20,000 nt of DNA from an uncultured virus (IMG/VR IMGVR_UViG_3300034073_004395) (lineage: Duplodnaviria; Heunggongvirae; Uroviricota; Caudoviricetes), in IMG/VR virus record IMGVR_UViG_3300034073_004395. One strand, given 5' to 3'. The notes under the pieces were generated by a model that saw nothing but the letters and a program-made list of their open reading frames with translations, was not told the origin of the DNA and did not search any database. Made by a program: the position numbers and the translations under genes. Position 1 is the first letter of the stretch. Each line of letters begins with the position of its first letter. Positions 9,783 through 15,033 of this stretch are shown here, piece by piece.

Positions 9783-9982
9783 TGACGAAACGCTCCGAAC
9801 CCACTGACTGGCCTGTCTATCTTTTGGCATTGGTCATTGCCTTGGGACTTAGTTTTGGAGCGGCATGTGTAGGGGCATGGGCGGTCCAGTCAATCTGGCC
9901 GTCTGTGCCCTTTTGGCCTGCCGCAATTTTGATTTGGCTCGTCATGGGCTTGTTTTCTCGCTCTTCAAAAAGTGCTTCTTAA
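9782..9982 (+). CDS. Small membrane protein
   Basis: Two hydrophobic segments. Confidence 0.6.
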   Translation: MTKRSEPTDWPVYLLALVIALGLSFGAACVGAWAVQSIWPSVPFWPAAILIWLVMGLFSRSSKSAS

Positions 9983-10559
9983 CGACAAGCAAATTAGCAT
10001 TCTTGCTGAAAACGACATCATCTTTCCTTTCACTGGAGAGAAGCGTCGTGAATTAGACAATGGTACGAAAGCATTGTCTTACGGACTGTCTCACGCTGGT
10101 TATGACCTGCGCCTTTCTCCTGAAGGCTTTATGGTCATTGATAACAGCGTAAGTAAGGACTTCCCTCTGGATGTGAAAAGCTTCGACACGGAGCTGATGG
10201 AAGAGCAGACGCCTCGGCAAGAAAATGGCAGCACGTTCTTTGTGCTTCCGCCTTTTTCCTACGCTCTTGGCGTTAGCCTTGAACGCATCTCGATGCCTAA
10301 CAATGTGATGGGCATCACGGATGGGAAGTCAACGTATGCTCGTCAAGGGACCATTCTTAACGTCTGCCCAATTGAGCCTGGCTGGTCTGGTCATCTTACT
10401 ATTTGTATTATCAACCCCCTGGCTTTTCCAGTTCGCATTTATGCCAATGAAGGCATTGTCCAAGTAATGTTTTTGCAGATGGAAAGTGAAGCTGCGAAGG
10501 CTTACGGCGAAGGCAAGTATCAGAATCAAGGCAGTCGCCCAGCTTTTGCAACCGTTTAA
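9972..10559 (+). CDS. dcd: dCTP deaminase
   Basis: LSYGLSHAGYDLRL, GKSTYARQG, PIEPGWSGHLT, IYANEGIVQ and GKYQNQ motifs. Confidence 0.92.
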   Translation: MLLNDKQISILAENDIIFPFTGEKRRELDNGTKALSYGLSHAGYDLRLSPEGFMVIDNSVSKDFPLDVKSFDTELMEEQTPRQENGSTFFVLPPFSYALGVSLERISMPNNVMGITDGKSTYARQGTILNVCPIEPGWSGHLTICIINPLAFPVRIYANEGIVQVMFLQMESEAAKAYGEGKYQNQGSRPAFATV

Positions 10560-10583: not shown

Positions 10584-10656
10584 TGCTCGGCGGGTTTCGG
10601 CATCGCGGGGTGTGCTACGGCTTGGCATAACATGGCGAGGAGGGCGCAAGCCCTCC
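10584..10656 (+). ncRNA. Solitary GGY-NN pentamer-repeat unit with 3' GNRA hairpin (putative guide RNA)
   Basis: TGC-TC GGC-GG GTT-TC GGC-AT CGC-GG GGT-GT GCT-AC GGC-TT GGC-AT AAC-AT GGC-GA, then GGAGGGC-GCAA-GCCCTCC. Confidence 0.65.
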
Positions 10657-10674: not shown

Positions 10675-11094
10675 ATGAAAAAGCCAGCCACTGATTACTA
10701 CAGCCGATACATGCTCTCCGAAACTTGGGCCGAAAAACGGCTAGAGAGGCTTGACGTTGATGGGTATTGCTGCCAAACTTGTGGTAGTCGCGAAGACCTG
10801 GAGGTCCACCACAAATACGGCGGACCGCCAGACTACCACTACCCCAAGCCATTGGGGCGAGAGTCACTTTCCGACTTGATCACACTCTGCAAGCACTGCC
10901 ACGAAGCCATCACAGACAGCGTTCGCCGTCGTAAGCATGAGCTTCAAGGAGTCCCTGCAATTATTGATCACAAGACCACACGACCCTCATTGTCTTTTAA
11001 CAATGGCTCAACAGCAGTACACCTTCAAGATCACGGGGATTGCCCCGTTGATCGTCCACAACGGCGAATTGGCCGACCCATTTTACGCTTTTAG
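10675..11094 (+). CDS. HNH endonuclease
   Basis: CQTCG...LEVHH...DLITLCKHCHEAI. Likely start is ATG 10675; the GTG extension runs through the repeat unit. The 3' end overlaps the next gene by 92 nt. Confidence 0.85.
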   Translation: MKKPATDYYSRYMLSETWAEKRLERLDVDGYCCQTCGSREDLEVHHKYGGPPDYHYPKPLGRESLSDLITLCKHCHEAITDSVRRRKHELQGVPAIIDHKTTRPSLSFNNGSTAVHLQDHGDCPVDRPQRRIGRPILRF

Positions 11095-11602
11095 CCAAGA
11101 AATCAAAAAGATTTCGGGCAAGCGCAAGAAAACTGAAGCCGATCATGAGATGATGGCCAAGCTTGAATGGCGTGGCGGTCTCTATGTGAACGAAGGCAAG
11201 TTGATTGTTCCTTCAGACTGCTTTGAAGCATCACTCGTGGGGGCGGCTAAGCTTTCTCGCCTTGGCAAGGATGCGGCTCGCGGCTTGTTTGTGGAAGACC
11301 ACTTGCTGATTTGTGGAGACGGCATTCCTGATTCCGTGGATGAAGAGGCTCTTGACGCTATGTACGAAAGCGGCAAGTTCACCTTCCGCAAGGGAGTTCG
11401 CGTAGGCACTGCGAAGGTCATGCGCACTCGTCCCATCTTTGGGCTTGGATGGTGGTCACAAGCCACTATTGTCTTTAACGACGCCGTTTTCAATAAACAG
11501 CAAATTGAAGATTTAGCCGAAGCCGCTGGCTCTCAGATTGGACTTTGTGAATGGCGGCCTCGCTTCGGTCGGTTTGCAGTGAGCGAAGGGCAATTCTCTT
11601 GA
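11003..11602 (+). CDS. Stand-alone RAMP/Cas7-like protein (199 aa), putative effector of the adjacent repeat-RNA array
   Basis: N-terminal strand FKITGIAPLIVHNG, LIVPSDCFEASL (cf. RAMP IPGSSLKG) and C-terminal Gly-rich loop GSQIGLCEWRPRFGRF. Fold assignment is by motif resemblance only. Confidence 0.65.
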   Translation: MAQQQYTFKITGIAPLIVHNGELADPFYAFSQEIKKISGKRKKTEADHEMMAKLEWRGGLYVNEGKLIVPSDCFEASLVGAAKLSRLGKDAARGLFVEDHLLICGDGIPDSVDEEALDAMYESGKFTFRKGVRVGTAKVMRTRPIFGLGWWSQATIVFNDAVFNKQQIEDLAEAAGSQIGLCEWRPRFGRFAVSEGQFS

Positions 11603-11627
11603 CAGCTAGGCGTTAAGGGTTTATGAT
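11599..11627 (+). promoter_or_regulatory. sigma70 promoter driving the array
   Basis: TTGACA (11599-11604, overlapping the stop codon), 17-nt spacer, TATGAT (11622-11627). Confidence 0.8.
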
Positions 11628-11628
11628 T

Positions 11629-11659
11629 AAGGCTCCCACTCAAGGGAGCCTTTTCTTTT
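11629..11659 (+). terminator. Intrinsic terminator after the RAMP-like gene
   Basis: GGCTCCC-ACTCAA-GGGAGCC followed by TTTTCTTTT. Confidence 0.7.
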
Positions 11660-12066
11660 GGTCGGGGGCTGGGTCCGCTGCGGCGGGGCGGGGCTGAGCA
11701 CGGCGAGGCAAGGTTTGGTGGTGCTTGGGCACGAAGAGTGCAACATTTTTTTTTGGCCGGAGGTCCGGCTCGGAACGCTTGGACAAGGCGAGGCGTGGCC
11801 TGGCGGGTCGAGGGCACGAGAAGTGCAAATGCCTTGGTCGGGGGCCGGGCAAGGCGGGGTGGGCAATGGTGTAGCAAGGTAGTTTACGGGCACGAGAAGT
11901 GCGCATTGAGGTCAGTGGCGAGGCGGGGTTCGGAACGGTTCGCTGGGGCAGTGTTCGCCCAGGAAAGCCAGGGGCATGAGGAATGCAATTACTGGGCCAG
12001 AGGTTTGGTGCTGCGTGCTTGGATGAGGCGTGAAAGGCAAGGGTAAGCCACGGGCGCGAGAAGCGC
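11660..12066 (+). ncRNA. Array of five GGY-NN pentamer-repeat RNA units (putative guide RNAs)
   Basis: Units at 11660-11741, 11755-11826, 11836-11902, 11910-11986 and 11995-12066. Each has a GGYCRGN leader, then 12/10/9/11/10 in-phase pentamers, then GG plus a GCRY-GARRA-RYGC hairpin. Confidence 0.85.
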
Positions 12067-12080
12067 GTTAATATTTGCCT

Positions 12081-12455
12081 ATGAGCGCTCTTGAAGACAA
12101 CTTCCTTAAAGCATGGCTGCTCATTGCGCCAGACCTTTCTCTTGAGCGCGAATATTCAGCTATTGAATCATGGGAGCAAGACTTCCAACAGCGCTACGCC
12201 AAAAGCAAACGCAGCAAACGCTATCGAGCTGACTTTGCTCACATTGAAGCAAAAATCATTGTCGAAGTGCAGGGAGGAACATGGAATCGCGGACGCCATG
12301 TTCAAGCATCAGGCTATGCCAGAGATGCCAGAAAGTTCAATCTTGCGCAATTCTCTGATTGGCAAGTGTTTCTCCTCGTTTCAGAAACGGCAACAGACCA
12401 AGCAGTGCTACAGCAAATCGCTCAACACATTCGTCATCGCCTACTACAAAAATAG
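12081..12455 (+). CDS. Vsr/DUF559-like PD-(D/E)XK endonuclease
   Basis: SALE..., YRADFA, IIVEVQGGTWNRGRH, YARDARKFNLAQ...WQVF. Confidence 0.8.
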   Translation: MSALEDNFLKAWLLIAPDLSLEREYSAIESWEQDFQQRYAKSKRSKRYRADFAHIEAKIIVEVQGGTWNRGRHVQASGYARDARKFNLAQFSDWQVFLLVSETATDQAVLQQIAQHIRHRLLQK

Positions 12456-14100: not shown

Positions 14101-14467
14101 ACAAGCTCCCGTTGTTTCTCATCCCGTGCATCATCCCTCTCACTACAATAATGGCGGTATTGAAGCCATTGAGGGCATTGAGGCAAGCATGAGCCCTGAA
14201 GCCTATCACGGCTTTTGCAAGGGCAATGTGATCAAATACGTTTGGCGCTACGAAAAGAAAGGCGGCCTTGAAGATCTGCAAAAGGCAAATTGGTATCTCA
14301 ATCAAATTATTTTTGCCCTTGAAACTGATCAAGAACGCGAAGCTCTTGCGGCCATTGAAAATAATATTGACAATGGCTGCAAAGATGGCGTGTGCCCTAT
14401 TCCTGGTATTCGTTTCGATCTTCCCCCAAAAGAAGGCGATCTATTCGCGCCAGTAGATAAAGCCTAA
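14084..14467 (+). CDS. DUF3310 protein (T7 gp1.7-like nucleotide kinase family)
   Basis: VHHPSHY...IEAIE...GFCKGNVIKYVWRYEKKGGLEDLQKANWYL. Confidence 0.85.
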   Translation: MAMPFEQAPVVSHPVHHPSHYNNGGIEAIEGIEASMSPEAYHGFCKGNVIKYVWRYEKKGGLEDLQKANWYLNQIIFALETDQEREALAAIENNIDNGCKDGVCPIPGIRFDLPPKEGDLFAPVDKA

Positions 14468-14946
14468 GCTGCCTGCCATTCTGTATAGCAAAAGCCCCCA
14501 GAAATGGGGGCTTCTTCTTTTGACGGTGGAATGTAATAATCACGCTCCTCCGCAAATGCTTCAATATCCTGCAATGAAGTGTGGGCGCTAACAAAACTAT
14601 TGTGATGCACCCATGCCAACAAAATCTCTTCTCGCTTTTCAGTCCAGAAGCGCTGCGGACGCCACCATTCAAAAATAGGCTCCGCCCCTTTCAGTAAATT
14701 ACATGCTTGACAACTTGGCACTAAATTATATTTTGCAAAATGAGGCCCGCCTTTGCTTTTGGGCACAATGTGATCAATAGTTAGCTTCTGATCCCATCGC
14801 CCACAATACGCACAGGCGCATTGTCCAAGCGGCCCTCGCAGCGGATAATCTTCAAAAATACTCTTACGGAATCTCCTTCTAGCGTCTCCAGGGCGAAGTT
14901 CAATGAGAGAGTAAAGCAGCTCATCGGGACCATTCGCTCTTGGCAT
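14464..14946 (-). CDS. HNH endonuclease
   Basis: CAYCG...LTIDHIVPKSKGG...NLVPSCQACNLLKG. Likely ATG at 14946. Confidence 0.9.
   Translation of the reverse strand: MPRANGPDELLYSLIELRPGDARRRFRKSIFEDYPLRGPLGQCACAYCGRWDQKLTIDHIVPKSKGGPHFAKYNLVPSCQACNLLKGAEPIFEWWRPQRFWTEKREEILLAWVHHNSFVSAHTSLQDIEAFAEERDYYIPPSKEEAPISGGFCYTEWQAA
14492..14521 (+). terminator. Intrinsic terminator
   Basis: AAGCCCCCA-GAAA-TGGGGGCTT then CTTCTTTT, inside the 3' end of the convergent HNH gene. Confidence 0.65.
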
Positions 14947-15033
14947 GGCACTATTTACTTTTTCTGCAAACAATCTAACGGGCAACAAGCAAATAATGCG
15001 TTTTAGCTAATATAAAAATTGCAGGGAATCTCC

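What the first reader, a model, noticed from the sequence alone, without database searches (positions are those of the whole stretch)
11727..12066. Terminal hairpin of every unit shows compensatory base changes
Seen: GCAC-GAAGA-GTGC (11729-11741), GCAC-GAGAA-GTGC (11814-11826 and 11890-11902), GCAT-GAGGA-ATGC (11974-11986) and GCGC-GAGAA-GCGC (12054-12066). Two independent double substitutions preserve pairing. The purine pentaloop resembles GNRA-like boxB loops. Short linkers of 7-13 nt follow. Inference: selection acts on RNA structure, as a processing signal, 3' protection, or a cap or nucleation site for the protein filament.
Basis: partly seen in the sequence, partly recalled or inferred. 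Interest (0 to 1): 0.75.

Follow-up and report, generated by a model that had tools for sequence, protein, structure and literature searches.

The report
Phage guide RNAs aim next door
The small hairpins are the conserved ends of five guide RNAs of a CRISPR-like phage system (VIPR), whose outermost guides match the two genes flanking its own insertion site in sister phages that lack it, which suggests a gene cassette that spreads by RNA-guided cutting.

Summary
Observation confirmed. The hairpins are 3' tails of five vrRNAs of a VIPR system in an S-CBS4-like cyanophage: GGY/NN tracts precede them and the upstream gene is a SUSP1 Vipr homolog (E 1.6e-25). In 7 lineages 33 of 33 stems pair, with U-G 8 times and never C-A, so selection on plus-strand RNA structure is well supported. 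Structured tails are known for VIPR; this 13-nt GARRA form is not in the texts I read. It looks like a cap, not the processing signal: orphan single guides keep it, whereas a 5' motif GGYCRGN marks 33 of 33 array units and 0 of 9 single guides. The boxB likeness is clade-specific. The larger result: the cassette carries an HNH gene (155 of 159 loci) and sits between dcd and a PD-(D/E)XK gene, which abut in 73 of 75 siblings. The last guide matches that gene in siblings at up to 20/20, own allele 16/20; the upstream guide matches dcd 19/20, own 16/20. The pattern recurs at a portal gene. Best reading: RNA-guided homing (inferred, about 0.55; no cutting shown).

The parts
9972..10559 (+). dcd (dCTP deaminase), left flank of the cassette; own allele of the solo guide's target at 10350-10378 (16/20)
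10589..10656 (+). solo upstream vrRNA: 10 NN (10589-10638) and a different 7-bp hairpin with a GCAA loop (10639-10656); matches dcd of cassette-free siblings at 19/20
10675..11094 (+). HNH nuclease gene (candidate Vap), two CxxC, H45-H46/D67/H76; overlaps the vipr start; codons 10801-10832 are matched by an orphan guide of a vipr-less sibling
11003..11602 (+). vipr gene, 199 aa, RAMP/Cas7-like
   Evidence: SUSP1 Vipr, PDB 36pp, E 1.6e-25; phrog_4652
11599..11627 (+). sigma70-type promoter (11 of 12 consensus) overlapping the vipr stop; likely array promoter
   Evidence: both hexamers recognisable in 7 of 7 lineages by eye
11629..11659 (+). terminator-like hairpin and U-tract between vipr and the array
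11660..11741 (+). vrRNA unit 1: head GGYCRGN, 12 NN, hairpin 11729-11741; target not found
11755..11826 (+). vrRNA unit 2: 10 NN, hairpin 11814-11826; one 19/20 candidate in another viral contig, uncertain
11836..11902 (+). vrRNA unit 3: 9 NN, hairpin 11890-11902; target not found
11910..11986 (+). vrRNA unit 4: 11 NN, hairpin 11974-11986; target not established
11995..12066 (+). vrRNA unit 5 (last): 10 NN, hairpin 12054-12066; matches the PD-(D/E)XK gene of cassette-free siblings at up to 20/20
12081..12455 (+). PD-(D/E)XK-type gene (phrog_503; weak DUF559), right flank, part of the phage backbone; own allele of the unit-5 target at 12366-12394 (16/20)

Best explanation
The hairpin is the 3' tail of a VIPR guide RNA. 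The array is transcribed from the promoter at the vipr stop (inferred) and cut in the A/U-rich linkers or at the GGYCRGN head (inferred). Vipr subunits coat the GGY/NN tract, one per repeat (shown for SUSP1, inferred here by homology). The last GG plus the 4-bp GARRA hairpin ends the filament and shields the 3' end (inferred; 0.65 among hairpin roles; that it is a selected vrRNA tail structure at all, 0.93). The cassette (solo guide, HNH, vipr, array) is an insertion between dcd and a PD-(D/E)XK gene (shown). Its two outer guides read, by the 1-nt-skip code, the alleles of those two genes in cassette-free sister phages, about 210 nt left and 175-285 nt right of the empty site, while the carrier's alleles carry amino-acid changes at those codons (shown). 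Most likely, in a co-infected cell the HNH protein nicks or cuts at the Vipr-bound sites and repair from the carrier copies in the cassette with its resistant flanks, as in intronless homing but with RNA setting the site (inferred, 0.55). Inner guides are cargo aimed at other competitors (inferred; targets mostly not found).
For: Vipr homology with H17, K33, R39, K82, G87, K88, R138, W178, R179 of SUSP1 kept and D177 as E (alignment; roles). Covariation with U-G but no C-A. Hairpin pairing 0.05-1.0 in naked RNA but 0.80-1.0 when the tract is blocked, as if coated. Same-position GG-G..GC stem in 139 of 369 distant tracts against 3-8 in shifted registers. Orphan single guides in 2 vipr-less siblings keep the hairpin. 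0 of 79 siblings have vipr; dcd and PD-(D/E)XK abut in 73 of 75 and in S-CBS4. Unit 5: 20/20 in 6 and 19/20 in 42 of 79, shuffled maximum 16, other skip lengths 15. Last guides of 7 of 7 lineages hit that gene, at three or four sites. Solo guide 19/20 in 70 of 79; one lineage (L005) switched to another dcd site and is least matched there (14/20 against 17-20 in the other carriers) while matching the others' site at 18-19/20. Distant loci: last guides beat 60 shuffles on their own locus in 14 of 97 (13 downstream), first 2 of 81, middle 4 of 118. 10 of 313 distant guides hit 67 cassette-free portal loci; all 10 are last guides of arrays 60-73 nt before a portal gene, own allele lower in 8 of 8 scorable. 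HNH upstream of vipr in 155 of 159 loci, H/D/H kept in 95-100%; an H-D-H triad is catalytic in DinG-HNH (PMC10910872). A rival's orphan guide matches the HNH active-site codons (19-20/22, shuffled maximum 17).
Against: No RNA ends, binding or cleavage were observed. Own alleles still match at 59-83% (16/20 in the window; 15/18 in L004), at or near the 80% cut-off used for targets in the discovery paper, so self-immunity is assumed. All characterised VIPRs silence; the discovery paper assigns nucleases to host-defence types. The 79 siblings were retrieved by likeness to the L008 allele of the PD-(D/E)XK gene (best 80 of 169), which favours one allele type there (not at dcd). Loci are related, so counts overstate independence. 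83 of 97 distant last guides show no clear own-flank match, only 17 distant upstream guides were found, and no guide hit upstream of the portal. 230 of 369 distant tracts lack the stem by my test. The upstream solo guide lacks the GARRA hairpin. The HNH fold matches all have E above 0.001.
Confidence: 0.65

Rival explanations
1. Silencing only: Vipr represses dcd and the nuclease gene of sister phages to win co-infections; the HNH is a binding helper or acts independently.
For: Repression is the only activity shown for VIPR; orphan and anti-relative guides are described for SUSP1 relatives.
Against: It does not explain why the targets are the two genes touching the insertion site, in matching order, and the portal gene where the cassette sits before a portal. 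The carrier's own dcd would supply the product in trans (inference). Catalytic residues are kept.
Confidence: 0.2
2. Local acquisition: new guides are copied from DNA next to the cassette, so outer guides record flanking genes without serving spread; the own allele then drifts or is selected to avoid self-silencing.
For: How vrRNA guides arise is not described in the texts I read; partial self matches are seen.
Against: A self-silencing guide would more easily be lost than kept; instead flank-matching guides persist and were replaced by new flank-matching guides in 7 of 7 lineages, with nonsynonymous changes in columns about 90% or more conserved among siblings.
Confidence: 0.12
3. The hairpin is the processing signal (Cas6-like or host RNase site), or a boxB-like protein-binding loop that recruits a factor such as the HNH or an antiterminator.
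For: G, A and the last A of the loop are invariant in 33 of 33; GNRA-like pentaloops bind proteins in boxB and crRNA complexes (PMC12550061, passages); A/U-rich linkers follow, 17 of 22 with the A..U spacing of cyanobacterial RNase E sites against 12.4 shuffled (PMC8682795, abstract).
Against: Single orphan guides keep it; arrays L029 and L049 have the GGYCRGN junction with no such hairpin between units; loops differ in distant arrays. A part in positioning the cut is not excluded.
Confidence: 0.25
4. The paired changes come from DNA template switching at short palindromes or from gene conversion among units, not from selection on RNA.
For: Such mutagenesis makes double changes in one step (recalled); units clearly recombine (L165, L169).
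Against: T-G persists in 8 of 33 and C-A in none; a DNA process would repair both and be strand-symmetric. Six combinations need at least five pair changes.
Confidence: 0.05

Closest known systems
VIPR type II of Escherichia phage SUSP1 (10.64898/2026.04.26.720920, .720927, 2026.10.15.759431)
   Same: Phage-borne; Vipr homolog; one guide upstream and an array downstream; GGY/NN tracts of 9-13 repeats; 1-nt-skip targets; structured 3' tail; orphan guides in vipr-less relatives.
   Different: Tail is a 13-nt hairpin rather than a 40-nt pseudoknot; units have a GGYCRGN head; the accessory gene is an HNH upstream of and overlapping vipr, not a DNA-binding vap1; outer guides match genes flanking the insertion site rather than a satellite.
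Nuclease-bearing VIPR types III-V (same discovery paper; an HNH Vap is named in the legend of fig. S21)
   Same: Predicted nuclease beside vipr.
   Different: Described as defence-island systems against viruses; here viral contigs with multi-guide arrays. I could not see the type figures, so the type is unassigned.
Free-standing homing endonucleases: T4 MobE (HNH) and SegF, intronless homing (PMC2790892, PMC13565253, passages)
   Same: Intergenic insertion; target in a neighbouring conserved gene within 2 kb; own allele differs; HNH nuclease.
   Different: Those recognise DNA by protein; here the site would be set by a reprogrammable RNA, on both sides, with cargo guides. Cutting and biased inheritance are untested here.
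Type I-E Cas5-HNH and I-F Cas8-HNH Cascades (PMC10910872, passages)
   Same: RAMP filament with an HNH nuclease; the HNH model matches Cas5-HNH at 1.6-1.7 A over 64-70 columns (E 0.017).
   Different: There the HNH is fused and guides are contiguous crRNAs; no fusion was found here (weak evidence).
Lambdoid boxB hairpins
   Same: Purine pentaloop starting with G and ending with A.
   Different: 4-bp stem, one per guide, loop not kept in distant arrays; no antitermination context was identified.

Membership tests
VIPR | Vipr (RAMP-like) protein | tested here: met
   phmmer to SUSP1 Vipr E 1.6e-25 over residues 7-194; functional residues kept
VIPR | vrRNAs of alternating GGY/NN next to vipr | tested here: met
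   9-13 NN per unit; 62% of 315 triplets exact GGY in 29 clade units
VIPR | Targets follow the 1-nt-skip rule with the skip at wobble positions | tested here: met
   20/20 and 19/20 at skip 1, 14-15 at skips 0, 2, 3; codon-aligned; met for 2 of 6 window guides, the other 4 have no firm target
VIPR | Structured conserved 3' tail | tested here: met
VIPR | Discrete vrRNAs expressed and bound by Vipr | not testable with these tools
   only assembled contigs were available
VIPR type II (SUSP1 clade) | About 40-nt pseudoknot tail and DNA-binding vap1 | tested here: not met
   13-nt hairpin then 6-13-nt linker; HNH accessory gene
VIPR types III-V | Placement in the published Vipr tree and vap class | not testable with these tools
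   figures and data S3/S4 are not held as text
Free-standing homing endonuclease | Optional intergenic insertion with an empty site in relatives | tested here: met
   73 of 75 siblings and S-CBS4
Free-standing homing endonuclease | Target in a neighbouring conserved gene, own allele different | tested here: met
   (sequence level only)
Free-standing homing endonuclease | Nuclease with intact catalytic residues | tested here: met
   H45/H46 98%, D67 95%, H76 100% of 123 unique proteins
Free-standing homing endonuclease | Site-specific cutting and biased inheritance in mixed infection | not testable with these tools
   needs bench work
boxB/nut site | GNRA-like purine pentaloop | tested here: inconclusive
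   sequence fits in 33 of 33; fold not tested; lambda loop consensus recalled
boxB/nut site | boxA element and an N-type arginine-rich partner | not tested
   no search was made
Known Rfam RNA family | Match to a curated model | tested here: not met
   0 matches in the window; 1 sub-threshold match in 10 loci

The most novel reading that the evidence does not exclude
HNH-VIPR cassettes are RNA-guided homing elements: a Cas7-like filament and a free HNH nuclease, steered by the first and last guides to the genes on either side of the empty site, copy the whole cassette into sister phages. After landing at a new site (dcd/PD-(D/E)XK, portal, head-tail genes) the element retargets by rewriting its last guide, and rivals answer with hairpin-tailed orphan guides against the HNH and vipr genes. 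This would be a programmable gene drive among phages and a selfish origin for RAMP-based RNA guidance.
Probability: 0.55. Interest if true: 0.92.

Novelty: new variant of a known kind. Interest (0 to 1): 0.8.

Why it matters
The hairpin alone is a compact variant of a known vrRNA feature; it is useful because it defines a guide of about 70 nt with a 13-nt cap and separates cap from probable processing motif. The targeting pattern matters more. It suggests why a minimal RNA-guided RAMP would persist in phages (self-spread), gives a phage-borne VIPR with a likely nuclease of 340 aa total coding, and makes guide acquisition testable, because the last guide must be rewritten at each new site.

Tried and rejected
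RNA evidence: 3 runs were listed and laid, all as contigs; one 157-nt contig covers 11671-11827 in two runs of equal size, probably one data set; it shows no ends, strand or level, so it is not used. HNH-Vipr complex prediction gave no verdict (score 0.00), which is no evidence either way. HNH-Vipr fusion search among longer proteins: none of 2,719 candidates (weak). Single-sequence HNH fold was poor (pLDDT 43); with alignment 74. Inner guides 1-4: 0 of 18 sibling records each at 2-3 mismatches, and no hit above shuffles in 11 assembled sequences or 79 loci. Unit 2 core pattern: 31 viral loci, best 19/20 in one (L185), about what a 15-base pattern can give by chance; its antisense reading resembles a tail-fibre repeat (recalled, untested). 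Unit 4 core: 6 loci, best 19/22, inconclusive. Host genomes were not searched for targets. Whole-unit MFE folds show the hairpin only in units 1 and 2 of 5, z -0.01 to -2.5, so folding energy is not support. Rfam negative. The PD-(D/E)XK gene was rejected as part of the cassette because S-CBS4 and the siblings have it. The overlapping ORFs across the array were not pursued. Five of 15 hits of the hairpin-plus-head pattern (L164, L166, L172, L173, L178) looked like chance and were dropped. The L285 orphan guide matches vipr at 18/22 against a shuffled maximum of 17, marginal.

Full report
Observation. The five hairpins are exactly as described. Each is preceded by GG and by a tract in which GGY triplets recur every five bases, and followed by an A/U-rich linker. 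A lone 4-bp hairpin is common (136 of 19,987 positions), so I tested covariation on relatives.

What the array is. The gene upstream (11003-11602) matches SUSP1 Vipr at E 1.6e-25 and keeps the residues that the cryo-EM paper ties to RNA and DNA contacts (10.64898/2026.04.26.720927, parts 1-2 of 6 and passages). The discovery paper (10.64898/2026.04.26.720920, all six parts read as text, figures unseen) defines VIPR by this protein, GGY/NN guides, a 1-nt-skip code and a structured 3' tail. The window is a relative of Synechococcus phage S-CBS4 (exonuclease 70.8%, syntenic), so a cyanobacterial host is inferred.

The hairpin. Close relatives (Vipr 90-100% identical) gave 7 lineages and 33 hairpins. 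All pair; pair 3 is A-U or G-C, pair 4 is C-G, U-G or U-A; all six combinations occur; C-A never does. The wobble asymmetry points to plus-strand RNA, not DNA palindrome repair. In naked RNA the stems of units 4 and 5 lose to other folds (0.05-0.07), but with the guide tract blocked all five form (0.80-1.0). Distant arrays (Vipr 41-48%; best 80 of 251 and best 80 of 569 loci kept) have a stem at the same place in 139 of 369 tracts against 3-8 in shifted registers and 13.5 after shuffling (the closing G-C is required by the test), and 0 of 140 have the GARRA loop. Two single orphan guides keep the hairpin; the upstream solo guide uses another one. A 5' motif GGYCRGN is in 33 of 33 array units, 0 of 7 solo and 0 of 2 orphan guides, and is the junction in arrays without hairpins. 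I read the hairpin as the cap of the mature guide and the head plus linker as the likelier cut signal. A host RNase E cut is plausible but weakly supported (17 of 22 linkers against 12.4; PMC8682795, abstract only). None of this was observed on RNA.

Where the guides point. An HNH gene lies upstream of vipr in 155 of 159 loci with room to see it, with H45-H46, D67 and H76 conserved. In S-CBS4 and in 73 of 75 scorable siblings dcd abuts the PD-(D/E)XK gene; 0 of 79 siblings have vipr (80 kept of 169 found, one dropped as a carrier's own record). Unit 5 matches the PD-(D/E)XK gene at 20/20 in 6 and 19/20 in 42 of 79; shuffles reach 16, other skips 15; the own allele scores 16 through three amino-acid changes. 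The last guides of all 7 lineages hit this gene at 174-285 nt from its start; own alleles score 13-17 of 18-22 and are within one of the lowest among eight alleles. The solo guide matches dcd at 19/20 in 70 of 79 (71), own 16. Lineage L005 uses a different dcd site; there it scores 14/20 and other carriers 17-20, while at the common site it scores 18-19 and the others 15-16.

Replication elsewhere. In 114 distant loci, 14 of 97 last guides beat 60 shuffles on their own locus, 13 of them downstream, against 2 of 81 first and 4 of 118 middle guides; both hits among 17 upstream guides lie upstream. Against 67 cassette-free portal loci (of 80 kept), 10 of 313 guides hit; all are last guides of arrays lying 60-73 nt before a portal gene, at about five to seven sites, and the own allele is below the sibling median in 8 of 8 scorable, 2 being cut off. 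These loci are related, and most last guides (83 of 97) show no clear signal on their own locus.

Mechanism. This is the sequence signature of intronless homing: optional intergenic element, nuclease, target in the neighbouring conserved gene, altered own allele (PMC2790892 and PMC13565253, passages). Silencing alone would gain little, as the carrier supplies the same products in trans, and does not explain why the target follows the insertion site. A rival's orphan guide aimed at the HNH active-site codons suggests that the HNH matters in this conflict. Against: no cutting is shown, own alleles match up to 83%, and inner guides have no firm targets.

Novelty. VIPR, structured tails, HNH Vaps and orphan guides are published. 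Searches for VIPR with homing or HNH and term searches in the three VIPR papers (homing 0 in the discovery and competition papers) found no flank targeting or homing. I could not see figures, data S3/S4 or bioRxiv supplements, which may already hold this type and tail; the PMC supplement was searched by terms only. Also consulted: 10.64898/2026.10.15.759431 (part 3 of 8 and passages), 10.64898/2026.10.21.760802, PMC12550061 and PMC10910872 (passages).

Verdict. Real feature; a new compact tail variant of a known RNA class, within a cassette whose targeting pattern suggests RNA-guided homing. Interest 0.8.

Noticed in passing
L165:1150-1240 and L169:2430-2515: Two records of a near-identical phage lost HNH, vipr and units 1-2 by a deletion joining the solo guide to unit 3 at an 8-nt microhomology, leaving a chimaeric guide and an orphan array.
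   Followed up: partly
L269:3990-4925 and L285:1-815: vipr-less siblings carry a different HNH gene and one orphan vrRNA with the same hairpin at the same site; the L269 guide matches the VIPR HNH active-site codons (19-20/22), the L285 guide weakly matches vipr.
   Followed up: yes
window 11660, 11755, 11836, 11910, 11995; L029:3197-4206; L049:2022-2409: GGYCRGN-GGY motif shifts the 5-nt register by 2; it heads every array unit here and is the junction in hairpin-less arrays (6 of 6 and 9 of 10 spacings); candidate processing signal.
   Followed up: partly
window 11599-11659: The array promoter's start site falls inside the left arm of the terminator-like hairpin, so array transcripts could escape a terminator that stops vipr mRNA; layout kept in 7 lineages.
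   Followed up: no
window 10937-11094: The HNH frame runs 30-270 nt (mostly 90-150) into vipr in all 163 loci scored, always in the same frame offset; translational coupling or a frameshift product is possible.
   Followed up: partly
L033:3230-3660, L021, L023 and others: Distant arrays have longer multi-stem spacers after the first hairpin, with no Rfam match.
   Followed up: no
L322:5913-6340: An unrelated 420-nt insert at the same dcd/PD-(D/E)XK site, suggesting an insertion hot spot.
   Followed up: no
window 14464-14988 (minus strand): A second HNH-type ORF by its motifs, syntenic with S-CBS4 gp066; not part of the cassette.
   Followed up: no
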